In this document: positions 2-29,573 of the stretch, piece by piece
Layout of the letters: each line of letters starts with the position of its first letter
Position numbering within the stretch: position 1 is the first letter of the stretch
Origin: a virus
Lineage: Duplodnaviria; Caudoviricetes
Direction: 5' to 3' (one strand)
Length of the DNA: 35,269 nt
IMG/VR virus record: IMGVR_UViG_3300032320_001728
Coordinates: 1-35,269 of that record
Made by a program: the position numbers and the translations under genes
The notes under the pieces: generated by a model
Told to the model about the DNA's origin: nothing
The model's input: the letters and a program-made list of their open reading frames with translations, nothing else
Databases searched by the model: none

Positions 2-3000
2 TCTAAAGAAGAAATAGCTTTAGGTATTTGGAATAAATATACTAATCAAGATGTTGAAGGTAGAGATGTTGATATTAATGATGAATTAGATATTAAATAT
101 ATAGATATTGATTCAGAAGTTAATTTAAATTCTAATGAACCTATAACTAATGTTAAATCAGAAGTAGAAGAATTTGTTAGTAGTAATAACCAATCAAATA
201 ATAATTCTTTATTTGGTTTAAATGCTACAAATCAAGAACAATTAGAATTTCACATAAATACTTTAAATGTAGTAGGGCAATTTCTTGAAAATATAGGAGT
301 ACAGAAAAGGCTTGTCTCAGAATTTTTAGCAGAAGATGGTTCTATTGTAGAAGGAGCAGTTGCCGCTGCTAATTTTATTGAAGGGACTGTTGATATTATA
401 GAAGATTTAGAAAAAAGACCTTCTGCTTGGAATAAATTACCAGAAGAAGCTGCCCATTTTTGGTATAGATTATTAGATATGAATTCCTCTTTAAAGGAGG
501 CTTTATTAACAGCATCATTAACTGATAGAAAAGAATCAGAATTAAAAGAATCTTTATATGGTAAAACTTATAATGTAAAAGTAATAGGAAAAATTGATTT
601 AAAAACAGGTAAACCTGTTTTATCACCAATAAGAGAAGAGGCTATTGGACAACTTATAGCAGAGGCTATAAAAAGAATTGAAGATAAAAATGCAGCACCA
701 AAAGATTATTCATTCTTTAAAAAGTTTTTAGAGTGGATTAATGGGCTTATAAATAAGTTTAAAAATATTGAACAAGATCCATTTGAAGTAGCTGCTATGA
801 AAATTCTTTCTTCAGATTTGTCAGATTTAATGACATGGGAAGAATATAGTAAATTAAATAATATAGTAAACTTTGCTGATGTTCTTACACAGCAATCTGT
901 GGCTCCTATTGATTATACTCTTATTGAAGATATTGGAGAAGTGTTTTATCCTTTTTTAGACGAAGATAATTTTTATTTTAAATATAAAGATGGAAAAACA
1001 AGTCCAGAGTTTAGAACAAAACAAGAATTAGATAATTGGGTATCGGTTAATGTTAAAGAACATGACCAAAGACAAAAAGCTATTATACAAGAAGTAAGAG
1101 ATAATGAAGTATTTTTTGATAGACTTCTTAATAAATCTTTTAGAAAAAAATCTAAATTTTTACCTAAAACTCTTAGAAAGTATTTTACTATACTTGATTC
1201 TCAAAATCTTATACCTTTAAAAGACTGGGACATAACTCAAGAATTAAAAGAAATTACTAAAAAACTATCTGAACAAGAAAAAAAACAAATAATACAAACT
1301 AATGGATATACTAATATTGCTCCCACTTTAAAAGTATTACCTAATTTATTACAAAAATATAAAAAAAATCCTATTGTATTGTCTGAATCTATTAAAATAG
1401 ATGGTGCTAAAAAACAAGAACTTTCTATTCTTGATGGTATTAAAGAAATGATTAAATTAGAAAATCCTAATTTAAGAACTATTACAGCGGAAGAATTTGT
1501 AGCAGAAGTACATAATTGGTTAAAAACTAATTATTTATTAGGTTTTGCTAATGAATTTGCTCATGATACTTATGGAGTTAATAACACTTTTGTATTAAAT
1601 AATAGTAAAGGATTAATAGACCCACAAATTAATCCTGCAACACTTACAGAAGATGATATTAGAAATATGACTCCAGAAAGGAGACAACAAATAGCTCAAT
1701 GGATGGGAATGACTAATAATAATAATAAAAATGTTTATCATAATAAAGTTAGTATACGTTTTAATGATACTTCACATGGTCGTTATGGTCAAGGAAATCG
1801 ACATTTTCAACTAAATGGTTATATACCTAGTGCTTTTGGCTCTTTAACATATTTTTATACAGGGAAAAATAAATGGAAAGATGCTGTTTTATTACATGAA
1901 ATACAAAATGATAATATAGAAGCTTTAAGAGAGTATGAAGCTGAAAAAGTAGATTTAGAAACTTCTTTGGGTAGATATTTACAAGACTTAAATCAAAATT
2001 TATTAGATAATATTACACAAATAGAATCTAATAGTAAAAAAGTAGTTAAATTAGCAGGTCAAAATCCTCCTAAACAACATACACAATTAAATTGGAGGTT
2101 AGAAGAATTAATAAATGTACCTTTAGAACAAGGTTTAAATCTTTTAAAACAAAGTCTTAATGAATCTATAGAATTATATAAATCTAATTTTCAATATTTT
2201 AATATTGAAAAAGCTCAAGATAAAATAGATGATATTTATACTCAAAAGAGGATATTTCAAGATTTTCAAAAAAAAGGAGGTATAAAATCTTTACTTAGTA
2301 AAAAAGAACTAGAAGGTTTAAAAAATATTCTTAATACATTAAATACAGAAGAAATTGAAGGTGAGGGTGAATGGAGTCCTGATGATAATGTAACATTTCC
2401 TGGAGAATGGGGGGTAAGAGATTTGAAACAAAAGAAAAAAGATTTTAAAAAGTTAGTTACTAATTTAGAAGTTGAGTTAAATAGTACTCTTGTTCAAATA
2501 TATGGAAATAAAATTCCTGCTATTACTTTATATCCTTCTATTAAACCAAGAACAAAAGCTCAAATAAGAAGAGGAGATCCTATAAATACATCTTTAAATG
2601 AAAATGTAAACTTTTTATTAGCTTTTTCTGAGCAGCAATTAAATAAAGAGCTTTCTAAAAATATAGGTGACGCTAAAAGAATGTATATTACAGCTAGAAA
2701 TGCTACAATGGCTTATAATTTTAATGTAAAGTTGTCTAAAATTACTCAAGAACAATATAATAATCTTATTGAAAATTATAAATATAATAGACAATTATTA
2801 GATAAATTGATTAATGAACAAGCCCAAAAAGACATTCAAAAAGAAAGTATAAATATTTCTAAATTGACTGATGCTGAAATTGAAAAAGATATTACAGGAG
2901 AATTTGAAGAACCTAATGAAATAGATGGTTTTGCAGGTAGTGGTTTTGTTTATAAAAATATTTATTTATCTTTAAATGCTACTACAAAAGAAAAAGCAGT

Positions 3001-6000
3001 TCAAGAAATTAGAGATAGAAATAATAAAGAAAAACAAATACAAAAACAACAAGAAGAATTTACAACCTTAAAACAAGAAGCATTAGCTAAAAAAGCAGAA
3101 TTAGAAAAAGATTATGGTAAAATAGAAGATAGAGTAAAGCAAACTTTAGAAATAGAAATGAATTACTTTACTCCTTTAGTTCACCATTTAATCCAAAAAC
3201 ATATTAATCAATATGGAAAAGATTTTCCTATGTATTTTAGCGGGTATAATATTACTGTGCTTACACAAAGTAATGAAAGAACTGCTTTAATATATGCTGG
3301 TAAAGATGAAGTAAATATTGTAGATAAAAGTAATTTTATATTCAATGGTATTAATTATAATTCAAATTGGGGGACAGGTTACAAACCATTAAGTCCTTTT
3401 GAGCCTTTTGATTATTTTAAAAATGGTTGGCAAGGTGAATTAATTACTCAACAAGAATACGAAAAAGCATATCAACAAGCTACTGAACAAAGAGCTAAAG
3501 AAATTAAATTTGAAGCTGCTCAACAAATAGGGTTAATTGAAACTAAAAGTACAGTTCCTTTTAGACAAGGAGAAGATATATCCTTGGAAGAAGGTATTAA
3601 ACGACTTAACGACTACAAAAAGAAATCTAAACAAAATTTAGATAGAGTGGTTAACACTATAATGAATATCAGTGGTAGTAAACCTATTGAAACAGGAGCT
3701 ATTTACAATGCTATGTCTCAAGTAAGTGGAGTTAAACTTATTTGGCAAGATAAAGTAGAGGGATTACAAAATAATGTTGGAGGATATTTAGTAGATTTAA
3801 GTAATTATAATTATAATGTTCCTGTATTATATGGGTTACAAAATAATAAAAAAGAAAAACAATTTTCTAAAGTAAGTTCTAAAAAAGGTTTAGTAAATCA
3901 AAATATACTAGCTGAGCAATCTTCTGAAACTCCTTTTAAAAATATACTGCAAAATATACTTAAAACAGGTAAAGTAGGTAATATGACAGACTTAGATTTA
4001 TTTTACGCTAAGTTATTATTAGATAATTTAAATACTTTTAATCCTACATTAAAAATAGCTAAATTAGAAGATGCTTTAGGTAGTATAAATGTAGCTACTC
4101 AAGTTATTACTTTAGATGAAGATTTAATAAAATCAGGTAATTATGAAGCTGTTGTACAAACAGTATTACACGAAGTTGGGCATGGGTTTTTATTATTCCC
4201 ATTTTCAGCAGTAAGTGGTGAGTTAAACGAAGCAGATAGAATGTTTAAATTAACAGTAAATAATCTATTTGCTAATTACAAAGCTAAACATAAAGCAGCA
4301 AATAAAAGATTTGGAGATGATGTTAAAAATGGTTTTAAAGATGTTGAAGAATTTTTAGCTGAATTTATATCTAGTAAAACTTTTAGAGAATATTTATATG
4401 ATTTAGATAGAACTTTATTACAAAGAATATGGGATAGTATTAAAACATTTTTTAAATATAAAGTAACTAGAAAAGAGTCTAATGATTATAAAGCTTTAGA
4501 TACTATTATTAATAGTTATATCTTAAATGGTAAAACAATTAATACTTTAAAGTTTAAACATCAATTAAAAAGAACTGTTTTTAACAAAAATAAAGCTAGT
4601 ACTTTACAAGATGTTAAAGCTAATATTATTAAAGAGATTGATAGGTTAATGATTGATTTAAGAGATAAGTCTTATGGTAGTAGTACTTTAAAAAAACTTA
4701 ATCAGTTACAAGATCAACTTTTAGATGTTTCTGAAGAAACAGCAATAGATTTATATTTAGAAAGAGTAGAGAGTATATTTTCTAAAACTGTAGCAAAATT
4801 TAATGCTATAGAAAAAGACTTACATAATATAGATGATTGGGATGTTGAAAAGTTTACTGATTTGTTTTATACTATGAATATGTATAAATCATATTTAAAA
4901 AACTTTAATATGTGGGATGCTGGAGATGAACAATCTATAACAGAGTTTCTTAGAGCTAATGATATGCCTATAGATTCTAGAATAGATTTACTAGCAGGTA
5001 AAAAAAGAAGTATTGATTTTTTATATTCTAGAATAGCTGTTAAATTAGTTAGTAGAAGTTTAGCTAGTAAAGAATTATTAGATGAATTAAATGCTAACAT
5101 AACTGATGTAAATAAAAAAATTACTTATGAGCAATTAGAACAGTCTTTAAAATATTTAACTGATGTACAAGATATTAATGCTCCTAGTTTACAAGCTGAA
5201 GCAGCTATTAATAGTAAAGATTTAATTACAGCTTTAGTAGCTAATAAAATTAAGTCTGCTTTAAATGATGCTATTGAAGAAGATATTAATTTAGAATCTA
5301 AATTATCTTTATTATATAACAAAGCTTTTTCTAGAATTGAAAGTACAGTAAATAGTTTTAAATCTCTTTTTGGTAAATACATACATGAAGTTGAATATTT
5401 AGAACATACTGATTATGATGATAGTAAAAATAAAGTATATTCTAAAGTTAAGAAAAAAGCTTTTATTACTGAAATAGATTATTCTAAATATCAAGCTAAT
5501 AAAAATGCTTTTTACGCTTCTTTAGAAAAATTACCTGAATTACCTAAAGCTGGTGATGAAGATTATCAAATTCTAATTAGAGATTATAGAGAAATTAAAG
5601 CTCGTAATAATATAAAAATATCTTTATGGTCTAAACAAAATGAAGAGCTTCATCCAGATTATCAAAAAATTATGGATAAAAAGAAAGAATATCTATCTCC
5701 TGAAGAATACAATGATTGGTTTAAAACTAATACAGACACTCTTAATGGTGATTTTAAAGTACCTGAATCTAGAAAAGATAAGTTAATAGGTCAAAATGAA
5801 AATGGTGATTGGATTATAGCTAAAAAAGAATTAGTAACCCCTAAAAAATCTATGTATACTAATCCTAAATGGGCTAGTGTTAAAGATGATAAATTTTATA
5901 TAGCTTTATTAGATGCTTATAATGAAGCTAATATGAAATTACCAAAATCTAAAAGATTGAAATATGGAGTAATACCACAAAGACCTAAGTCTTGGAAAGA

Positions 6001-7762
6001 ATATACTATTGAAGGTAAAGTACCTAAAAATCGTCTTACAGGTAAAGGTGCTAAAGAGTTAGATGAAAAATGGGGTAAAAATTATACAGAAGTTGAAGAA
6101 AAAGAATTTTGGAATGCTGGTTTACATACTATAGATACTAAAAGTTATTTACCTATATACTATACTTCTAGTATAGATGAAGATGATGTTAGTATGGATA
6201 TATTACAAAGTGTTTTAAAGTTTGCTAGTAGTAGTAATAAGTTTTCAGCATTTTATAAAATAAACCCTGAAATAAGCCTTATGAAAGACGTTGTGTTTGG
6301 TACTAATGTTATTGATAGGATGGAAGGTAGATATACTATTAAAACTGATAATAAAGGCAATCCAACTGGAGAAAAAATTAATGTAACTACAAGAGCTAAT
6401 GAGCAACTTATGAGCTTTTTAGAAAATTCATTTTATAATACTAAATTAGAAAGTCCAAAAGCTGCTAGAATTGCTTCTAATATAACTGGATTTACTTCTT
6501 TTGTACAATTAGGAGGAAATTTAATAAGTTCTATACCTAATGCTATTTATGCTAATTTTGTAGTGGCTCAAGAAGCTATATTTAGTAAGCATTTTGGAGG
6601 TAAAGGAGATTTAGTTAAAGCTCATGCTATAGTTACTGGGTCATTAGTACATGATTTAGCTAAATTTTCTGGAGCAGTAGAGCATGTTGATAGTAAAACA
6701 GCTTATTTAGCTAAATTGTATCAAGCTGTTCAAGGTAATCATCAAAATGAATTTGGTGAAAATGCTAGTAATAAAATGATGAATAATTTGTTTAGTCAAA
6801 ATTCTTTTTTTATTTTATACTCTATACCTGAATATGAAATACAAACAACTACAATGGTTGCTATGATGTTAAAAACTATGGTTAAAACTAAATCAGGTGA
6901 GTCTATTAGTTTATGGGATGCTTATGAGCAAGATGAAACAGGTAGAGTAGCTTTAAAACCTGGTGTTATTTTTACTAAAGATCAAAGAAATACATTAATT
7001 GGTAAATTACATAAAGCTAATAAAGAACTACATGGTAACTACAATAAGTTTGATACTCCTAAATTAAAAAGAATATGGTATGGTAAATTTTTATTCCAAT
7101 TTAGAAACCATATATTTGAAGGATTTAAACGTAGATTTGTTAAAGAGTACTTTGATGTAGAAGCAAGAGAATATAAAAAAGGTTATTATAGAAGTGGTAT
7201 AGACGCAGGTTTAAATGCTTTAACTCACGCTTATATAGGTTTAGTAAAATTAATGGAATTAGCTGGAGTACAAATGGATAAAGATAAATATAAATTTGCT
7301 AAATTGTCTGCTCCAGATAAATTAGATAGTTATAAAATGATGGTAGATGTAGCTTCTGTAATTGGATTATATTTTATAATAGTAGGTTTACAAGCTATGG
7401 CTAAAGCTGGAGATGATGATGATGAATTAATTTATTATGCTATTACTACTGCTAAAAAAGTACAAACAGATATAAGTTTTTATTGGTTAATTGATTATGA
7501 TGCTGTAATTAAACAAGTTAGAAATCCTGCTGTTGTTATGACATTTGCTGAAAACTTACTTAAAGGTACTGAGTTATTAATTAAAGCTTCTTATCAAGAT
7601 CCTAATGACCCTGAACAAACTAGTTATTATAAAATTGATACAGGTAGATATAAAAAAGGAGATTTAAAAGCTAAAAAACATTTATATAAAGCAATACCTT
7701 TATTAAATCAATATGAAAGAGATGTTAAAGAAGTTGCTGAATGGTATTTACATCCTAACTAA
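2..7762 (+). CDS. Giant virion/ejection-type polyvalent protein (5'-truncated) with zincin-like metalloprotease motifs
   Basis: Frame is open from position 2 (SKEEIALGIW...LPEEAAHFWYRLLD) into the 2427-aa ORF, so the true start lies upstream of the window. EEAAH at 443-457; HEVGH at 4169-4183 followed by EEFLAEF; hydrophobic segment VASVIGLYFIIVGLQAMA near the C-terminus. Size and position resemble the giant ejected proteins of crAss-like phages. Confidence 0.75.
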   Translation, partial: SKEEIALGIWNKYTNQDVEGRDVDINDELDIKYIDIDSEVNLNSNEPITNVKSEVEEFVSSNNQSNNNSLFGLNATNQEQLEFHINTLNVVGQFLENIGVQKRLVSEFLAEDGSIVEGAVAAANFIEGTVDIIEDLEKRPSAWNKLPEEAAHFWYRLLDMNSSLKEALLTASLTDRKESELKESLYGKTYNVKVIGKIDLKTGKPVLSPIREEAIGQLIAEAIKRIEDKNAAPKDYSFFKKFLEWINGLINKFKNIEQDPFEVAAMKILSSDLSDLMTWEEYSKLNNIVNFADVLTQQSVAPIDYTLIEDIGEVFYPFLDEDNFYFKYKDGKTSPEFRTKQELDNWVSVNVKEHDQRQKAIIQEVRDNEVFFDRLLNKSFRKKSKFLPKTLRKYFTILDSQNLIPLKDWDITQELKEITKKLSEQEKKQIIQTNGYTNIAPTLKVLPNLLQKYKKNPIVLSESIKIDGAKKQELSILDGIKEMIKLENPNLRTITAEEFVAEVHNWLKTNYLLGFANEFAHDTYGVNNTFVLNNSKGLIDPQINPATLTEDDIRNMTPERRQQIAQWMGMTNNNNKNVYHNKVSIRFNDTSHGRYGQGNRHFQLNGYIPSAFGSLTYFYTGKNKWKDAVLLHEIQNDNIEALREYEAEKVDLETSLGRYLQDLNQNLLDNITQIESNSKKVVKLAGQNPPKQHTQLNWRLEELINVPLEQGLNLLKQSLNESIELYKSNFQYFNIEKAQDKIDDIYTQKRIFQDFQKKGGIKSLLSKKELEGLKNILNTLNTEEIEGEGEWSPDDNVTFPGEWGVRDLKQKKKDFKKLVTNLEVELNSTLVQIYGNKIPAITLYPSIKPRTKAQIRRGDPINTSLNENVNFLLAFSEQQLNKELSKNIGDAKRMYITARNATMAYNFNVKLSKITQEQYNNLIENYKYNRQLLDKLINEQAQKDIQKESINISKLTDAEIEKDITGEFEEPNEIDGFAGSGFVYKNIYLSLNATTKEKAVQEIRDRNNKEKQIQKQQEEFTTLKQEALAKKAELEKDYGKIEDRVKQTLEIEMNYFTPLVHHLIQKHINQYGKDFPMYFSGYNITVLTQSNERTALIYAGKDEVNIVDKSNFIFNGINYNSNWGTGYKPLSPFEPFDYFKNGWQGELITQQEYEKAYQQATEQRAKEIKFEAAQQIGLIETKSTVPFRQGEDISLEEGIKRLNDYKKKSKQNLDRVVNTIMNISGSKPIETGAIYNAMSQVSGVKLIWQDKVEGLQNNVGGYLVDLSNYNYNVPVLYGLQNNKKEKQFSKVSSKKGLVNQNILAEQSSETPFKNILQNILKTGKVGNMTDLDLFYAKLLLDNLNTFNPTLKIAKLEDALGSINVATQVITLDEDLIKSGNYEAVVQTVLHEVGHGFLLFPFSAVSGELNEADRMFKLTVNNLFANYKAKHKAANKRFGDDVKNGFKDVEEFLAEFISSKTFREYLYDLDRTLLQRIWDSIKTFFKYKVTRKESNDYKALDTIINSYILNGKTINTLKFKHQLKRTVFNKNKASTLQDVKANIIKEIDRLMIDLRDKSYGSSTLKKLNQLQDQLLDVSEETAIDLYLERVESIFSKTVAKFNAIEKDLHNIDDWDVEKFTDLFYTMNMYKSYLKNFNMWDAGDEQSITEFLRANDMPIDSRIDLLAGKKRSIDFLYSRIAVKLVSRSLASKELLDELNANITDVNKKITYEQLEQSLKYLTDVQDINAPSLQAEAAINSKDLITALVANKIKSALNDAIEEDINLESKLSLLYNKAFSRIESTVNSFKSLFGKYIHEVEYLEHTDYDDSKNKVYSKVKKKAFITEIDYSKYQANKNAFYASLEKLPELPKAGDEDYQILIRDYREIKARNNIKISLWSKQNEELHPDYQKIMDKKKEYLSPEEYNDWFKTNTDTLNGDFKVPESRKDKLIGQNENGDWIIAKKELVTPKKSMYTNPKWASVKDDKFYIALLDAYNEANMKLPKSKRLKYGVIPQRPKSWKEYTIEGKVPKNRLTGKGAKELDEKWGKNYTEVEEKEFWNAGLHTIDTKSYLPIYYTSSIDEDDVSMDILQSVLKFASSSNKFSAFYKINPEISLMKDVVFGTNVIDRMEGRYTIKTDNKGNPTGEKINVTTRANEQLMSFLENSFYNTKLESPKAARIASNITGFTSFVQLGGNLISSIPNAIYANFVVAQEAIFSKHFGGKGDLVKAHAIVTGSLVHDLAKFSGAVEHVDSKTAYLAKLYQAVQGNHQNEFGENASNKMMNNLFSQNSFFILYSIPEYEIQTTTMVAMMLKTMVKTKSGESISLWDAYEQDETGRVALKPGVIFTKDQRNTLIGKLHKANKELHGNYNKFDTPKLKRIWYGKFLFQFRNHIFEGFKRRFVKEYFDVEAREYKKGYYRSGIDAGLNALTHAYIGLVKLMELAGVQMDKDKYKFAKLSAPDKLDSYKMMVDVASVIGLYFIIVGLQAMAKAGDDDDELIYYAITTAKKVQTDISFYWLIDYDAVIKQVRNPAVVMTFAENLLKGTELLIKASYQDPNDPEQTSYYKIDTGRYKKGDLKAKKHLYKAIPLLNQYERDVKEVAEWYLHPN

Positions 7763-18460: not shown

Positions 18461-19334
18461 CATTTTTATTAACTTTATATCTCTATAAAGATTAGACTAT
18501 ATCTTTATATCTAAGTATTATTTTGGCTTTAGTTTTACTAATATCTCTATTTTTAGAACATTGCTTTGAAATTGCACTAATTGATAAATTTAAAGCTTTA
18601 GAAGCCTCACTAATAGAAGGATATACATTTATAATATTTCCTAATTTATCTAAATGTTTAACTGATTTACCTTGATTTAAAGTAACTTGTAATTTTCTTT
18701 TTAAACAAGCCTCTTCAGTATATTTTTTACCTCTCCAAAAATTACCTATTTTTATTTTAGCTTTTTCAGGCATTTTTGTACCTGCTTTACTTTTAGCTAA
18801 TTTTGAAATATTAAACCCTTTTTTTGGATTATAGCATTCAGTTAAATTTATCCAGTATTGCTCTCTATCAATTAAAGTATCATTATTACAATACTCTATA
18901 ATTTCAAATATAAAACTATCTTTACCATATTTGTTATATGCACTTTGTAGATGTTTATTAGGATGATTATTATTTTTTAAACACCATTTATGTTTATCTA
19001 CTCTTTTTAGATACCATGTAGCAGAACCAATATAAAATTTATTATTAGTTTTACATGTTATCTTATAAATAACAAATTTAATTTTACTTAAATATAGCCA
19101 CCTTTTCCCAGCATTAAAGCCAGTACTCCCTTCCAGGATAGTCGTTGAACCTTCCTCATATTCTACAATAGAGTTTAGAAGCTTGGATGCTGATTGCCCA
19201 TTTTTAATATTATTATTCATAATACAATATACAAAATATTTTCAAACATTCAAAATTATTTTCATAATTTTTGTAGTTATTTTGTTTTTAGGGGTTTCCA
19301 GCAGTTAAATGGCTTTTACAAGGGCTAAGAATTA
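18461..19334 (-). ncRNA. Group I intron (IA2-like), 874 nt
   Basis: P1: exon AAGGGU pairs with GCCCUU (19325-19320) with a U.G pair at the splice site. P AACUGCUGGAAA 19306-19295; Q AAUCAGCAUCC 19195-19185; R GUUCAACGACUA 19150-19139; P3 AGCCAUUU/AGGUGGCU; S AAGAUAUAGUCU 18505-18494; P9 CUUUAUA-GAGA-UAUAAAG 18490-18473; terminal G at 18461. Confidence 0.93.
18492..19220 (-). CDS. Intron-encoded GIY-YIG homing endonuclease with NUMOD3/NUMOD1-like C-terminus
   Basis: VIYKI...FYIGSA...R...H, HPNKHLQSAYNKYG, REQYWI, GFNI; C-terminal YPSISEASKAL helix-turn-helix. Confidence 0.92.
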   Translation of the reverse strand: MNNNIKNGQSASKLLNSIVEYEEGSTTILEGSTGFNAGKRWLYLSKIKFVIYKITCKTNNKFYIGSATWYLKRVDKHKWCLKNNNHPNKHLQSAYNKYGKDSFIFEIIEYCNNDTLIDREQYWINLTECYNPKKGFNISKLAKSKAGTKMPEKAKIKIGNFWRGKKYTEEACLKRKLQVTLNQGKSVKHLDKLGNIINVYPSISEASKALNLSISAISKQCSKNRDISKTKAKIILRYKDIV

Positions 19335-24680: not shown

Positions 24681-26117
24681 TTAAGTTTCTAATATTTTAA
24701 TTATTCTTTTATCTTCATCAAATACTAATTCATTATTAGCTAAATCATTCTTTTCTTCTTTACTATTTATATCATCTATAAACAAGTATTTTCTTTTCTG
24801 AATGTAATCTATCAAACTTTGATTAGTCTTTTTAAAAGATTTCTTGATAACATTATCTAAAGTAAACTCAAAGTTATCTTCAAGTATTTCTCTATAATAA
24901 TTATCAGCAACATAGCAAAATGCCATGCAAATTTGCACCCAAGATTTAATCTTAGTGTAATTTGTTGTACTAGAGTGATTTCTAAACTCTAGTGTGTAAA
25001 CAGGTTTAAACTTATCCCCTTTAGTATTAAACATAGCTGGTAAAAAGTTTAACCAAGCATATCTAATATTAGAATGATTATAACCTGCTTTAGCTCCTTG
25101 TGGATGGTTAGTAAGCTTATTAGCTTTTCTATCTTGATTTTGACTACAAAGTATTTTAAATAAAGTAGCATAGTAATTATCTACTCTAAAATTAAAATCT
25201 TCAACATTAGTTATATTATTAAAATTAACATTCAAATCATTTAACATAAAGCAATAAGGATTTCCCCTTCTGCTTTTAGGTAACATATCAAATATTTCAT
25301 TTTGTAATTTATAACCAAGCTTATATGCAGCTAATACAAAAGCTTTAGAAAAACTCATCCCGCCTATATGTGTGTGCATTCCGCATGTATTATTTAAACA
25401 ACCTCGCTTAGAACATTCATTAGCAATAAGTCTAAGTTGATTAAAACCTGCATCCCCTGTTAATACTCCTGTCACGACTTCAGGACCATATTTCTCACCT
25501 TTAGAGTTAGTTATACTACCATCTTTCACACAAAATATATTCAACATATTTCTTTTAATAGCATGTATAGGTATAAATCCATCAGCCATTTCTATTTCTA
25601 CACCAAAAGTATATTTCTTACCTTCAGTTAAAATATAACTAGGAGACTTTTTACCTATTTTTATTTCTTGAGATATTGTTAAATTTTTACCGCTAAACAT
25701 GTTTTTAAATTCATTAAATTTAGGATAATCTTTATTTTTTTCTACATAATCTTTATCTTGAAAATTACCTTTAATAAAGTTTTCTACTATACCTAATTCT
25801 TTAAAAAGCTCTTCATTGTACAATACGTTAGTATTACTATATCCTTCTTTATTTATATAAGTAACATAAGCATTTAAACTATTGAAATCAACATCTTTAA
25901 AATGAGTAAAACAATCTATTAATTTGCCTTTATTATCTAACTTAAAAACAGGTATTGTTGATTTTTTCTCTATGTAACAATTTAAAATTTCAGAATAAAT
26001 ATAATATCTTTCTAAGTCTTCTTTACTAGCATTTAATTTATCAAGTACAGGTTTAAAAAAAGAATCAAACCCTCTACAAACCATATTTATTTTTTCAATT
26101 TGTTTTTCAATCTCCAT
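24681..26117 (-). CDS. Putative amidoligase (Amidoligase_2, glutamine synthetase-like COOH-NH2 ligase fold)
   Basis: TFGVEIE, DGSI, GPEVVT, TCGMHTHIG, RYAWLN, TLEFR...TTNYTKIKSW. Confidence 0.88.
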   Translation of the reverse strand: MEIEKQIEKINMVCRGFDSFFKPVLDKLNASKEDLERYYIYSEILNCYIEKKSTIPVFKLDNKGKLIDCFTHFKDVDFNSLNAYVTYINKEGYSNTNVLYNEELFKELGIVENFIKGNFQDKDYVEKNKDYPKFNEFKNMFSGKNLTISQEIKIGKKSPSYILTEGKKYTFGVEIEMADGFIPIHAIKRNMLNIFCVKDGSITNSKGEKYGPEVVTGVLTGDAGFNQLRLIANECSKRGCLNNTCGMHTHIGGMSFSKAFVLAAYKLGYKLQNEIFDMLPKSRRGNPYCFMLNDLNVNFNNITNVEDFNFRVDNYYATLFKILCSQNQDRKANKLTNHPQGAKAGYNHSNIRYAWLNFLPAMFNTKGDKFKPVYTLEFRNHSSTTNYTKIKSWVQICMAFCYVADNYYREILEDNFEFTLDNVIKKSFKKTNQSLIDYIQKRKYLFIDDINSKEEKNDLANNELVFDEDKRIIKILET

Positions 26118-28083
26118 AATATCTATTCATTAGATTGCTATTTTTTATTTCTTCTTCTTGATGTTTAATTTTTTCAAGTAATAATGAAAAACTTTCATAT
26201 AAATTTCTCTCTATATCTTGAGATACTTCTTTAAAATCTTCCATTAATATTTTTAATGCAGGTTTTTCTGAAATATTAGTAAATCCACTTTGCTCTGTAT
26301 ATCTAAGAGTATCTTCATAATTTTCTAAATTTTCTATAATACTAGATAATTCATTATCAAGCATAGCATTATCTTGTTCTAATAAAAAATCATCTATTAC
26401 TAAAGCATCATCAGTATTACCAGTAAATACATAAAAAGATTTAGCAAATTCAGATCTTAAATTTTTATAAACAGTTTGATTCCATACAGAATCTTCTATT
26501 TCTACTTCAGTTGCTATTATTTCAGTTTCTGTAGCTAAAAAATCTTCTTCTTCAGCTTCATTTTCTTCCATAAATGGATAACCATTTGATTTTACAAAAG
26601 GTACATTTTGGTTAAGTCTAGATTCAACCAAACCATGTCCATCACAAATAGAACATAAATTAGATTCACTATGTATCCATCCCATACCTGTACAATTAGA
26701 ACAAGCTACTAATCCTTCATATCTATTTGGGACAGCTGGAGGGTATCTCATAGGTGTTTGATTAGAAACAGGTTTATCAGTTTCCCAAATTAATTTTTGT
26801 TCTTCTGAAACTAAAGGTCTAATCCATTCATGTTTAATGCTGTTATATTGGATATTGTCTTCAGTTAATACAGAATAGTTAGTAATATTACCACTTTTAC
26901 AAGAGGCTATAACTTTACATATTTGACCTTCTTTAATTTTAACAACACCCTCTTTATTTTCAACATCATCCATAAACATAACCCAACCTTTAATAAACAT
27001 AGAATAAGTATTATTATTTTTTTCAAATACTTCTATATTTCTAGAAGAATATGCAATATAATGTTTTCTAATAACTTCTATATGTTCACCATCTTTACTA
27101 GTAACTCTTATCATTTCATCATTAGATATATCTAAAAACGCATCTTTTACAAATACCCAATCACCATAAACAAATTTAGTCTCATTTCCAATAGCAGTTT
27201 TAAATTTTGTTCTTTGGTCAATCATTACCCACTTATTGATATATTCTTTAAGACCAGAATTAAAGTTAGTTGTAGTATGTTTAACAACTTTACTAACTAC
27301 TTTAAATTCACTAAATACATATCCATCTAAAACTTGTTTTTCAACTAAGCTTGTAGATTTATACTCATAATTTTCTTTAGCTATTTCAATAGTAGATAAA
27401 CAATTAACTCCAAAACTAAAAGTAACAGAACAATTAATTGCTTTTAAGCTACTTTCTGTAGAACTAATATATACATTATCATCATCTTTACATATACCCC
27501 AAAATAAAGGTCTTTCTGAATTTCTATAAACATATAATATAGGAGATTTTTTAGTAATATCTGTATATAATACAGCTGTACCACCATCTAATTCTTCAAA
27601 TATTGTATGATTTTTACGTTTAGCTAATATTTGAGCTATAACCTGAGTATCTGTTTTCCAATCTTTATCTTTAATTAAGCCTTCTTTAGCTGCTAAACTA
27701 CCTTCATTACTTAAAGTACCATTATGAGCCATTACAAGCCATTCATACTTCATTGGATGAGCATTTGCAGCATCAGTTTTACTACCAGAAGTACCAGACC
27801 TTACATGTCCTATTAATAAATTACTAGGTAGTAACTCATTAAATTCTTTCTTAGCAATAAATTCTTCTGCTTTAACACACTCTTTAATTACATTATCTGT
27901 AACAGGAGTCCAAATACCAGTTGAATCTTTACCTCTTTCTTGATTATGATAAAAAAGAAATCTTATCTTCTCTTTATTATAATCTGTTTTACCTATAAAA
28001 CCTATTATTCCACAACCAAATACTCCTCGTTGTCTACTAAATAGATTTATAATAATTATTAATAAACTTATTTTTACAATCAT
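26107..28083 (-). CDS. Class II (Ntn) glutamine amidotransferase with C-terminal extension; catalytic Cys is codon 24 (28014)
   Basis: CGIIGF, RGKDSTG, GHVRSGT, NAHP, HNGTL, TDTQ, RNSERPL; later CSNCTGMG...CSICDGHG and an acidic coiled coil. Confidence 0.88.
   Translation of the reverse strand: MIVKISLLIIIINLFSRQRGVFGCGIIGFIGKTDYNKEKIRFLFYHNQERGKDSTGIWTPVTDNVIKECVKAEEFIAKKEFNELLPSNLLIGHVRSGTSGSKTDAANAHPMKYEWLVMAHNGTLSNEGSLAAKEGLIKDKDWKTDTQVIAQILAKRKNHTIFEELDGGTAVLYTDITKKSPILYVYRNSERPLFWGICKDDDNVYISSTESSLKAINCSVTFSFGVNCLSTIEIAKENYEYKSTSLVEKQVLDGYVFSEFKVVSKVVKHTTTNFNSGLKEYINKWVMIDQRTKFKTAIGNETKFVYGDWVFVKDAFLDISNDEMIRVTSKDGEHIEVIRKHYIAYSSRNIEVFEKNNNTYSMFIKGWVMFMDDVENKEGVVKIKEGQICKVIASCKSGNITNYSVLTEDNIQYNSIKHEWIRPLVSEEQKLIWETDKPVSNQTPMRYPPAVPNRYEGLVACSNCTGMGWIHSESNLCSICDGHGLVESRLNQNVPFVKSNGYPFMEENEAEEEDFLATETEIIATEVEIEDSVWNQTVYKNLRSEFAKSFYVFTGNTDDALVIDDFLLEQDNAMLDNELSSIIENLENYEDTLRYTEQSGFTNISEKPALKILMEDFKEVSQDIERNLYESFSLLLEKIKHQEEEIKNSNLMNRYYGD
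28004..28014 (-). repeat. Direct repeat TGTGGAATAAT, downstream copy (encodes CGII of the amidotransferase)
   Basis: Identical 11-mer at 28706-28696 on the other side of the HNH gene. Confidence 0.8.
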
Positions 28084-28608
28084 TTATATTATTTTTATAA
28101 TGTTTTTTGAAAAATTTAATAATTCTTCTTTGGTTGCATTATTTTTCATTACATTAGCTTTCATTGATATTACAATGACATTACCTTTAACATATCCTAA
28201 TTTAGGGTCTATTTTATCTAAACTAGGAGAATTACGTTGAAAACTACCACCTTTACCATATTCTTTTCTTTCTAATTTTATTTCTAAAATCGGACAAAAT
28301 TCAGGTATAACTATGTCTTCTATTGTAATGTTAAAAGGTAAATTGTTTTTCTTAGCTCTAGCTCTAGCTTGTAATAGTAATTGATTTTCTAGATCAATTT
28401 CAAATCTAAGTTTCCGATATTCCCTTTTTCTATCACGATATGATTCTGATTTATAAAAATCTTGAATCTTATCACTTTTTCTATAAGTTTTATCATATTC
28501 TTTTTTACAATTTTTACAAGCATTTGAATATCCATCTTTATTTCTTATATTTAAATGGAAATCTTCTAGTTCTTTAGTTTCTTTACAATAACTACATAAT
28601 TTATTCAT
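28084..28608 (-). CDS. Free-standing HNH homing endonuclease with N-terminal zinc finger
   Basis: CSYC...CKNC; CPIL...SPSLDKIDPKLGYVKGNVIVISMKANVMKN. The likely start is MNKLC at 28608 rather than the GTG at 28707. Confidence 0.88.
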   Translation of the reverse strand: MNKLCSYCKETKELEDFHLNIRNKDGYSNACKNCKKEYDKTYRKSDKIQDFYKSESYRDRKREYRKLRFEIDLENQLLLQARARAKKNNLPFNITIEDIVIPEFCPILEIKLERKEYGKGGSFQRNSPSLDKIDPKLGYVKGNVIVISMKANVMKNNATKEELLNFSKNIIKII

Positions 28609-28634
28609 ATTTCTATCTATATTATTTATATAGA

Positions 28635-28666
28635 CAAAAATAATAAATTTAATTAAAACAACCAAA
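28635..28666 (-). promoter_or_regulatory. Bacteroidota-type promoter for the HNH gene
   Basis: TTTG (28666-28663)-N20-TATTTTTG (28642-28635), 26 nt upstream of the ATG at 28608. Confidence 0.65.
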
Positions 28667-28680
28667 TAAAAACTATAATA

Positions 28681-28709
28681 ATGTGTGTTATTTAAATTAT
28701 TCCACACAT
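28681..28709 (-). other. Vestigial amidotransferase start (ATG TGT GGA ATA ATT TAA = MCGII*) inside a hairpin
   Basis: Mini-ORF 28709-28692 after an A-rich leader. ATGTGTG (28709-28703) is complementary to CACACAT (28687-28681), with the stop codon in the loop. Confidence 0.8.
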
Positions 28710-28724
28710 GTATTTTTAATTTTT

Positions 28725-29573
28725 TTATACATTAATTTTTACCAATTCTTTTACTATAGTTTCTAGCTTGTATTTATCTAATAAATAAGTAGCTATATCT
28801 CTATCATTAGTATCAATAGCTTGAATACAAGCTTCTATATCTGATAAATTATCAAATCTAAAACCATTATTAATATCATCTATTAACTTAAAAGTTTGTT
28901 CAAATATATAGTTACAAATATTAATATCTTTAAACCAGAAATTACTTAATGTTCTATACTCTAAGCCAAAGTTTTTAAACCTGTAAGCACCTGCTTTTCC
29001 ATACATCTGCTTTCTTAAATATCCTTTGTCTAGTATAACACTAGGAACACCTAAATATAAGTCTAAACCTCTTAAAATAGCTAAATTGGTATCTTCACTA
29101 GGATTATCATAACCTATAGCAAGATGACCACCAGCACTTCTAAGATTACCACCAGGAGCTGGAGCTATATTTTCATCAAGTGTCCAAGAATTAAAATCTG
29201 GTTCACAACCAAACTCTTGTGCTTTTTTAGTTTTTAATTGACTTTCATCAAAATATAAAGCACTATCAAAACAAAATTTATATTTATGATTATCTAGCTT
29301 CTCTTTTTGAATATAATTAAATACTTCTAAGAAACTTTCATAGAATACATTAACATCACTGCTAGGTATAATATTAAATTCTGCTGCTACATTATCTTCT
29401 TGATAACCTAACATATCTTTCAACCATATTGGTCTTTTCTTAGTACCACCAACAAGTCCTACAAGACTTGCTGGTTTATTATTACTGTCTAGAGCAAAAA
29501 ACTCTGGATCACTTCCTAATAATACATTTTTAATAGGAGTTATTTTATTTTCATTTAATTTTACTACTTGCAT
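28725..29573 (-). CDS. phiEco32-like COOH-NH2 ligase type 2
   Basis: LGSDPEFF, GGTK, QEDNVAAEFNI, FGCEPDFN, RSAGGH, YGKAGAYR.K.FGLEYRTLSNFW. Confidence 0.9.
   Translation of the reverse strand: MQVVKLNENKITPIKNVLLGSDPEFFALDSNNKPASLVGLVGGTKKRPIWLKDMLGYQEDNVAAEFNIIPSSDVNVFYESFLEVFNYIQKEKLDNHKYKFCFDSALYFDESQLKTKKAQEFGCEPDFNSWTLDENIAPAPGGNLRSAGGHLAIGYDNPSEDTNLAILRGLDLYLGVPSVILDKGYLRKQMYGKAGAYRFKNFGLEYRTLSNFWFKDINICNYIFEQTFKLIDDINNGFRFDNLSDIEACIQAIDTNDRDIATYLLDKYKLETIVKELVKINV

What the first reader, a model, noticed from the sequence alone, without database searches (positions are those of the whole stretch)
28004..28709. HNH cassette inserted in the first codons of an Ntn amidotransferase appears to supply a replacement, processable N-terminus
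Seen: upstream of the HNH gene is a canonical class II GATase start, ATG TGT GGA ATA ATT, followed at once by TAA. Downstream, the same TGTGGAATAAT recurs as CGII-GFIG with no in-frame start codon directly before the Cys. A 23-aa hydrophobic leader (MIVKISLLIIIINLFSRQRGVFG) instead begins right at the HNH stop (TAAATG). No group I R/S core is present. Known: Ntn amidotransferases need a free N-terminal Cys, and some (B. subtilis PurF) obtain it by losing a propeptide. Inference: a splicing-free homing element that disrupts its target yet rescues the gene through a duplicated N-terminus plus a removable propeptide. Alternatives are non-canonical RNA splicing across the 11-nt repeat or long ribosomal bypass (hairpin with a stop codon at take-off, matching codons at landing, GAGGAG 8 nt before the landing TGT).
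Basis: partly seen in the sequence, partly recalled or inferred. Interest (0 to 1): 0.88.

Follow-up and report, generated by a model that had tools for sequence, protein, structure and literature searches.

The report
Homing nuclease supplies replacement enzyme start
In a crAss-like phage, an intron-less nuclease gene sits just after the first codons of a glutamine amidotransferase gene and is followed by a new start with a conserved hydrophobic leader that is likely cut off to free the catalytic cysteine, a likely way for a selfish gene to break its target yet keep it working.

Summary
A near-identical phage has the uninterrupted MCGIIGFIG start, so the window carries a 692-nt insert: promoter-like site, HNH-type nuclease gene, 23-codon leader. 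The layout recurs: 7 loci hold this nuclease subfamily, all 7 directly upstream of a leader-bearing amidotransferase, 6 with an MCG(-like) stub in front, in enzymes only 26-57% identical. The leader is not unique to the cassette. It precedes the Cys in 57 of 120 homologues, in 20 of 77 nuclease-free loci and in cultured phage phi14:2, with a conserved end (K-x-K-x-N-[TVI]-L-x|C) and an intact active site. Splicing and ribosomal bypass fail their tests. Best reading (0.7): a free-standing homing cassette that inserts after the start codon and re-supplies the N-terminus as a self-removing, membrane-type propeptide. It would be the N-terminal counterpart of MobA and fungal atp6 end-replacement. 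Cleavage and processing are untested. New variant of a known kind; interest 0.7.

The parts
28692..28709 (-). Abandoned original start of the amidotransferase (MCGII*); identical to the nuclease-free allele for the first 14 nt
28004..28695 (-). 692-nt insert relative to the nuclease-free allele (boundary can slide by 11 nt: 28015-28706)
28635..28666 (-). Bacteroidetes-type promoter match, TTTG-N20-TAnnTTTG (predicted start near 28630)
   Evidence: consensus from PMC6847099 passages
28605..28647 (-). Predicted hairpin (approximate ends) covering the -7 element and the nuclease AUG in read-through RNA; lost in RNA starting at 28630
   Evidence: z -3.9
28084..28608 (-). 174-aa nuclease, N-terminal CxxC..CxxC zinc finger plus PacI/endoVII-like beta-beta-alpha-metal domain; site-specific subfamily of about 40 clusters
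28015..28083 (-). 23-codon hydrophobic leader (helix 2-15, then basic stretch, then G-V-F-G before Cys), starting right at the nuclease stop
26107..28014 (-). Class II (Ntn) glutamine amidotransferase, 635 aa from the Cys
28725..29573 (-). Upstream neighbour: phiEco32-like COOH-NH2 ligase (context, not part of the insert)

Best explanation
The 692-nt insert is an intron-less nuclease cassette, likely a homing element, that sits after the first codons of a phage class II amidotransferase and carries a predicted promoter, the nuclease gene and a replacement start whose hydrophobic leader is likely cut off to free the catalytic cysteine. Step 1 (inferred): in mixed infection the nuclease cuts the conserved ATG-TGT-GGA start region of leader-less alleles. 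Step 2 (end product shown, route inferred): repair copies in promoter, nuclease, leader and Cys codon, leaving the old MCG stub upstream. Step 3 (inferred): because ATG no longer adjoins TGT, the target is not rebuilt, which would explain why the nuclease is seen only with leader alleles. Step 4 (inferred): the enzyme is translated from the ATG at the nuclease stop, would be tethered by its N-terminal helix with the basic stretch and the enzyme on the cytoplasmic side, and would release itself by the Ntn-type cleavage known for PurF/GPRAT. The leader is an old, conserved form of this family that the cassette carries and spreads; whether the cassette lineage created it or captured it is open.
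For: Nuclease-free sister allele with direct MCG start. 7 of 7 loci with this nuclease subfamily have it directly upstream of a leader-bearing enzyme; stub exact in 5, degenerate in 1, absent in 1 (L381 was found through its stub, so its stub is not independent). In the enzyme-selected sample 4 of 4 nuclease loci have a leader against 20 of 77 others (Fisher p 0.006, near-copies not removed). Of 205 loci with a nuclease hit examined, only close-subfamily members had the amidotransferase downstream. Nuclease rows fall at 10 separate places on a 209-row tree, 9 forced by supported branches (3 of the 10 assigned by equal contig length only); leader state changes 44 times, 22 forced. Promoter match in 4 of 5 nuclease loci, 0 of 21 and 1 of 56 others. 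Leader conserved up to the bond: L at -2 in 50 of 57, N at -4 in 30, K at -6 in 34, K at -8 in 31; 0 of 55 direct-start alleles have such an upstream frame. Cys, Arg, His-x-Arg, HP, HNG and Asp are invariant across 21 leader and 22 direct-start rows. Autocatalytic propeptide loss is stated for GPRATs (PMC7056826 passage).
Against: No experiment shows DNA cleavage, transcription, processing or activity. 20 nuclease-free leader loci show no stub, so hit-and-run spread of the leader is not shown. L035 has nuclease and leader but no stub. Nuclease and leader are not strictly co-inherited (closest nuclease to the window, L035 at 71%, has a different leader type). The promoter is degenerate in L072 and L312 and the hairpin was found in only 3 of 5 loci folded. 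Structural support for the nuclease fold is modest (PacI, Foldseek E 0.02; VIA Z 6.1, rmsd 5.8 over 100). Known propeptides of this enzyme class are short and not hydrophobic (recalled). Window versus sister allele shows 9 synonymous and 20 non-synonymous codon differences, though only 1 of the 20 lies in the first 240 codons.
Confidence: 0.7

Rival explanations
1. Same cassette, but the leader is a true export or membrane signal removed by a host peptidase (signal peptidase I or II), or kept as an anchor, so the enzyme changes compartment.
For: 15-20 hydrophobic residues forming a predicted helix; -3 is T/V/I in 43 of 57 and -1 is S/G/A/C in 38 of 57, close to the (-3,-1) rule; endings such as ILS|C resemble a lipobox (rules recalled); the gene cluster has been suggested to modify the cell wall (PMC10580990 passage).
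Against: -1 is Y/N/L/H/F in 19 of 57; the basic residues follow the helix rather than precede it; near-identical alleles exist with and without leader, which argues for one compartment; lipidating the Cys would block the nucleophile (established chemistry).
Confidence: 0.12
2. The nuclease is an ordinary free-standing gene between ligase and leader-type amidotransferase; the stubs arise from recombination between leader and direct-start alleles without directed cutting.
For: L035 has nuclease plus leader and no stub; leaders are common without the nuclease (20 of 77).
Against: Stubs recur in 6 of 7 loci and probably in 5 more proteins whose N-terminal extensions read as the stub; the break always falls a few codons after ATG; nuclease rows are scattered over the tree.
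Confidence: 0.08
3. The insertion inactivates the gene: the leader stays on and the enzyme is dead.
For: The cluster is accessory, so loss may be tolerated (inference).
Against: Active-site residues invariant in leader alleles; 57 of 120 homologues carry a leader with a conserved end motif; the first 60 enzyme codons of leader alleles L075/L093 differ at 18 synonymous and 6 non-synonymous codons.
Confidence: 0.04
4. The insert is removed from RNA by splicing across the repeat.
For: An 11-nt repeat flanks the insert in the window; the genome has another intron.
Against: No Q/R/S core (positive control found); none of the 21 in-frame junctions obeying the group I rule restores MCGIIGFIG and none obeys the group II rule (near-native products such as MCGIIFIG are among them); repeat not exact in L046, L072, L381; almost no non-coding room at the 3' end; L035 lacks the upstream exon.
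Confidence: 0.03
5. Ribosomes bypass about 690 nt from the stub to the second CG, or start at a non-canonical codon behind GAGGAG.
For: Stem and stop at the stub, GAGGAG 8 nt before the Cys codon.
Against: The stub stem is matched by 53 of 200 shuffles in the window and is not conserved; stubs are 4-15 codons long, one is fused in frame to the nuclease (P0083); 0 of 32 ATG genes in the window have an SD-like site and Bacteroidetes lack SD use (PMC6847099 abstract listing); GAGGAG lies in leader codons and is absent from the other cassettes' last 15 nt.
Confidence: 0.03

Closest known systems
MobA element of T4-like phages (bioRxiv 10.1101/2022.08.31.505936; read abstract, Results part 1 of 2, Discussion section 12)
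   Same: Intron-less HNH element inserting repeatedly at one site in a conserved gene; carries an element-encoded N-terminal extension plus a homologous replacement region; overlaps the nuclease ORF; sister genomes lack it; nuclease can be lost while the added ends stay.
   Different: MobA splits the protein in two in mid-gene and uses a 50-nt bypass for immunity. Here the insert lies 3-5 codons after the start, only a stub is discarded, and the added end is predicted to be cut off the protein.
Fungal mitochondrial homing endonucleases that bring a new C-terminus (Allomyces atp6, Ophiostoma rps3, Phlebia atp6/cox2; passages of PMC4019555)
   Same: Nuclease inserts near a gene end and carries a homologous copy of that end, displacing the old one.
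   Different: Those replace the 3' end; this replaces the 5' end, needs its own promoter and start, and must restore a free N-terminal nucleophile. Different nuclease families and hosts.
Propeptide-bearing GPRAT/PurF (B. subtilis, Arabidopsis GPRAT2, human PPAT; passages of PMC7056826 and PMC13421311)
   Same: Class II glutaminase domain made with a peptide before the catalytic Cys; stated to be removed autocatalytically.
   Different: Those propeptides are short (about 11 aa and acidic, recalled). These leaders are 23-37 aa, helix plus basic stretch, and switch on and off among near-identical alleles.
PacI / endonuclease VII-like beta-beta-alpha-metal nucleases (PHROG 3322, 1035; PDB 3ldy, 3m7k)
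   Same: Profile match E 9e-35 and 2e-32; best structural match in both searches.
   Different: Structural scores are modest; target sequence unknown; this subfamily is tied to one genomic site.

Membership tests
Class II (Ntn) glutamine amidotransferase | GATase-II profile and Ntn fold | tested here: met
   Pfam GATase_6 E 3.5e-13; model pLDDT 93.6 matches GlmS and PurF domains, E 1e-13
Class II (Ntn) glutamine amidotransferase | Catalytic Cys and glutamine-site residues conserved | tested here: met
   C24, R50, H93, R95, H109, P110, N121, G122, D145 invariant in 43 rows
Class II (Ntn) glutamine amidotransferase | Cys is residue 1 of the mature, active protein | not testable with these tools
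   needs N-terminal sequencing and assay
Free-standing homing endonuclease cassette | Present/absent at one site in near-identical genomes | tested here: met
Free-standing homing endonuclease cassette | Same site in distant hosts, patchy on the host-gene tree | tested here: met
   7 loci, enzymes 26-57% identical; 10 rows in 10 places
Free-standing homing endonuclease cassette | Cuts the empty allele, spares its own | not testable with these tools
   needs cleavage assay
HNH / beta-beta-alpha-metal nuclease (PacI, endoVII-like) | Profile match | tested here: met
   PHROG endonuclease and endonuclease VII; tblastn hits annotated HNH endonuclease; no Pfam or NCBIfam hit
HNH / beta-beta-alpha-metal nuclease (PacI, endoVII-like) | Fold | tested here: inconclusive
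   PacI first in both searches but E 0.02 and Z 6.1, rmsd 5.8, 100 aligned
Group I intron | Q/R/S core and U|...G| junction restoring the frame | tested here: not met
   the motif scan finds the control intron at 19335-18460. Rfam scans are uninformative because they also miss that control
Group II intron | GUGYG...AY ends giving an in-frame product | tested here: not met
   0 junctions
T4 gene 60 / MobA bypass cassette | Conserved take-off stem and stop, matched codons, about 45-aa nascent peptide, short gap, SD in gap | tested here: not met
   stub 4-15 codons, gap about 600-700 nt holding a gene, stem not conserved, no SD use
Propeptide-bearing GPRAT/PurF type | Translated peptide in frame before the Cys | tested here: met
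Propeptide-bearing GPRAT/PurF type | Autocatalytic removal | not testable with these tools
   inferred from PMC7056826 passage
Sec or lipoprotein signal peptide | Basic n-region, h-region, then small residues at -3/-1 or a lipobox directly after the helix | tested here: inconclusive
   h-region present; -1 small in 38 of 57; basic residues lie after the helix; no signal predictor was run

The most novel reading that the evidence does not exclude
A homing nuclease lineage uses protein self-cleavage as its substitute for splicing: it evolved the hydrophobic propeptide to separate ATG from the Cys codon and so destroy its own target, and hit-and-run invasion has left that propeptide on about half of all crAss-like phage class II amidotransferases, phi14:2 included, where the released helix-plus-basic peptide or the membrane-tethered precursor may now have a function of its own.
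Probability: 0.3. Interest if true: 0.87.

Novelty: new variant of a known kind. Interest (0 to 1): 0.7.

Why it matters
It would add a third way for homing nucleases to sit inside a needed gene without splicing: replace the N-terminus and let the enzyme's own maturation remove the scar. It also uncovers a conserved membrane-type leader on about half of the sampled amidotransferases of crAss-like phages, for which my literature searches found no description. A cultured phage, Cellulophaga phi14:2 (gp051), carries such a leader, so processing, localisation and the role of the phage amidoligase cluster can be tested directly.

Tried and rejected
Rfam scans of the insert, the whole window and six cassette loci gave nothing, but they also missed the group I intron in the window, so they carry no weight. 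PDB sequence search with the nuclease alignment: no hit. A generic test for a leader hidden in another frame of nuclease tails did not discriminate (19 of 42 against 28 of 78) and was dropped; only the specific match (2 of 42, control 0 of 78) is used. Stub-plus-promoter scans gave 159 loci, 3 with nuclease and enzyme, 1 of them new. ATG TGT GGA is not enriched in stubs over direct-start alleles (22 of 28 have it), so it does not define the target. The stub hairpin is not conserved. The sigma-70 scan gave 15 sites against 10.5 expected and no terminator. No RNA holder was listed; X1, X2 and X7 contigs did not bridge the site, and a second laying of runs was not obtained, so the frequency of the two alleles in nature is open. 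L061 was first counted as a leader allele and corrected to a TTG start; it is still inside the '21' and the LEAD group. L097 (long branch) was left out of the tree and L072 (short) out. The careful tree did not finish; quick and FastTree trees are used. Synonymous excess within leaders themselves is weak on few pairs (e.g. 5:3, 4:8). Earlier findings of this scan: three look-ups, nothing. ESM Atlas only confirmed viral GATase clusters. Supplements of the bioRxiv MobA paper were not seen; they may bear on the comparison.
Full report
Setting. The window is a linear virus record of 35,269 bases, 37% complete. Its primase matches gut crAss-like, Bacteroides and Flavobacterium phages and its ATP-grasp gene matches Cellulophaga phage phi14:2 best, so it is a crAss-like phage, probably of a Bacteroidetes host; runs holding related DNA are mostly freshwater. 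The finding lies in a phiEco32-like cluster: class I amidotransferase, COOH-NH2 ligase, class II amidotransferase, amidoligase, which has been suggested to modify the host cell wall (PMC10580990, passages).

Observation. The 11-nt repeat is not unusual by itself (3 exact 11-mers in 901 nt). The decisive fact is the empty allele: L001/L023 differs from the window at 12 of 870 nt upstream and 29 of 635 enzyme codons, lacks the 692 nt and starts MCGIIGFIG; a contig of run X6 joins 28003 to 28696. The insert allele is held in more than one assembly, and a sister cluster at 92% identity also has both 637-aa direct-start and 659-aa leader forms (DNA context of those not available).

The two proteins. 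The enzyme is a class II Ntn amidotransferase by profile, PDB sequence search and predicted fold. The model gives the leader a helix at residues 2-15 and a less certain linker before the Cys. The nuclease matches PHROG endonuclease and endonuclease VII families; its model is closest to PacI in two searches, with modest scores. About 40 clusters at 53-72% identity form a tight subfamily.

The cassette recurs. From the best 80 of 266 viral loci encoding the enzyme plus the window, 57 start directly (56 ATG, 1 TTG) and 24 have a leader. Four have the nuclease directly upstream (window, L035, L046, L072), all with a leader; 20 of the other 77 have a leader (p 0.006, near-copies not removed). Three more cassettes came from nuclease or pattern scans: L103, L312, L381. 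All 7 have a leader. Five have an exact ATG TGT GGA stub before the nuclease, L312 a degenerate one, L035 none; L381 was found through its stub. Their enzymes are 26-57% identical over the first 140 residues and their nucleases 43-71%. Among 205 loci with a nuclease hit, more distant nucleases were not at this site. N-terminal extensions of five more subfamily proteins read as the stub, in frame in P0083 and shifted in P0057, P0058, P0061, P0063 (by eye). The tail of nuclease P0078 is compatible over 17 codons with the leader of enzyme P0273, both on a 43,824-bp contig. Stub and downstream copy differ in DNA in L046, L072 and L381, so the second copy is a homologous replacement carried by the cassette, as with the homR region of MobA, not a target-site duplication.

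The cassette has its own expression signals. A match to the Bacteroidetes promoter TTTG / TANNTTTG (PMC6847099, passages) lies between stub and nuclease in 4 of 5 cassettes tested, against 0 of 21 nuclease-free leader loci (L061 included) and 1 of 56 direct-start loci; background 0.028 per kb. It is degenerate in L072 and L312. In 3 of 5 cassettes folded, a hairpin covers the -7 element and the nuclease AUG (z -3.9, -3.1, -3.3) and in the window it is gone from RNA starting at the predicted +1. This resembles the translational gating of T4 homing endonuclease genes (recalled, no call).

The leader is a family trait. 57 of 120 homologues from a profile search have it, 63 do not (the profile included leaders, so the share may be inflated). 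Leaders are 23-37 aa: a hydrophobic stretch, then K/R, then N at -4 (30 of 57), T/V/I at -3 (43), L at -2 (50), varied -1. None of 55 direct-start alleles has such a frame upstream. Active-site residues are invariant in leader and direct-start rows alike. The cultured phage phi14:2 has a 31-aa leader on gp051 and no nuclease upstream. Leader state changes 44 times on the tree, 22 forced. No stub was found upstream of the 20 nuclease-free leader loci, so either the nuclease and stub were lost cleanly or these leaders predate the cassette.

Mechanism. Class II amidotransferases need the Cys as first residue (established), and GPRATs are stated to lose a propeptide autocatalytically (PMC7056826, passage; human PPAT density lacks it, PMC13421311, passage). 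Near-identical alleles with and without the leader, and conservation up to the bond, fit removal. Basic residues after the helix predict that the enzyme stays cytoplasmic (positive-inside rule, recalled), and a third of -1 residues are unsuitable for signal peptidase I, so self-cleavage is preferred (inferred). A cassette that restored ATG-TGT directly would rebuild its probable target; a leader avoids this, which would explain 7 of 7. Cutting, processing and the immunity role are untested.

Rejected readings. Splicing: no Q/R/S core in the insert while the same scan finds the intron at 19335-18460; no rule-obeying junction restores the native start. Bypass: stub length 4-15 codons, stem not conserved, 0 of 32 window genes with an SD-like site. 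Inactivation: contradicted by conservation.

Comparison and novelty. It works like the MobA element (bioRxiv 10.1101/2022.08.31.505936; abstract, Results part 1 and Discussion section 12 read) and like fungal mitochondrial nucleases that bring a new C-terminus (PMC4019555, passages), but it is a member of neither: it replaces the N-terminus and appears to rely on protein maturation. Searches for N-terminal replacement by a homing nuclease or for a leader on phage amidotransferases (listings seen, open-access library only; passages of PMC12386605 read) found no description. Verdict: new variant of a known kind, confidence 0.7, interest 0.7.

Noticed in passing
window 19335-18460, minus strand: Canonical-looking group I intron (Q at 19195, R at 19149, S at 18505) with a GIY-YIG gene (19220-18492) splitting an AAA_24 gene; missed by Rfam.
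   Followed up: partly
window 24666-23392, minus strand: A second gene starting Met-Cys with a weak class II amidotransferase match (PHROG 4736 E 2e-4), two genes downstream; no insert or leader.
   Followed up: partly
window 2-7762, plus strand: 5'-open ORF of at least 2586 aa with no PHROG hit and only a weak SprT-like Pfam match; position and size suggest a crAss-like virion-packaged giant protein (inference).
   Followed up: partly
L027, L033, L046, 60-150 nt upstream of the enzyme or stub start: A shared intergenic stem-loop-like sequence between ligase and amidotransferase in three related phages; possible terminator or small RNA element.
   Followed up: no
L025 and L035, upstream COOH-NH2 ligase: The ligase is split into two ORFs with a gap of a few hundred bases, suggesting introns in the neighbouring gene.
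   Followed up: no
L046, inside the promoter spacer: A second ATG TGT GGA TTA copy 20 nt after the stub, possibly a relic of an earlier insertion.
   Followed up: no
window 28668-28658 and 28022-28012: A second exact 11-nt repeat links the -33 element region and the end of the leader; probably chance.
   Followed up: no
L061 and L067/L055: Relatives with SD-like sites and TTG or GTG starts, so the family, and the leader (L067), also occur in phages that seem to use SD initiation.
   Followed up: partly
L035 and L072, nuclease start: The nuclease ATG falls at the predicted +1 of the promoter, so its mRNA may be leaderless (by eye).
   Followed up: no
window 20978-20948, minus strand: The only other minus-strand match to the Bacteroidetes promoter pattern, inside the gene upstream of the DnaB-like helicase.
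   Followed up: partly
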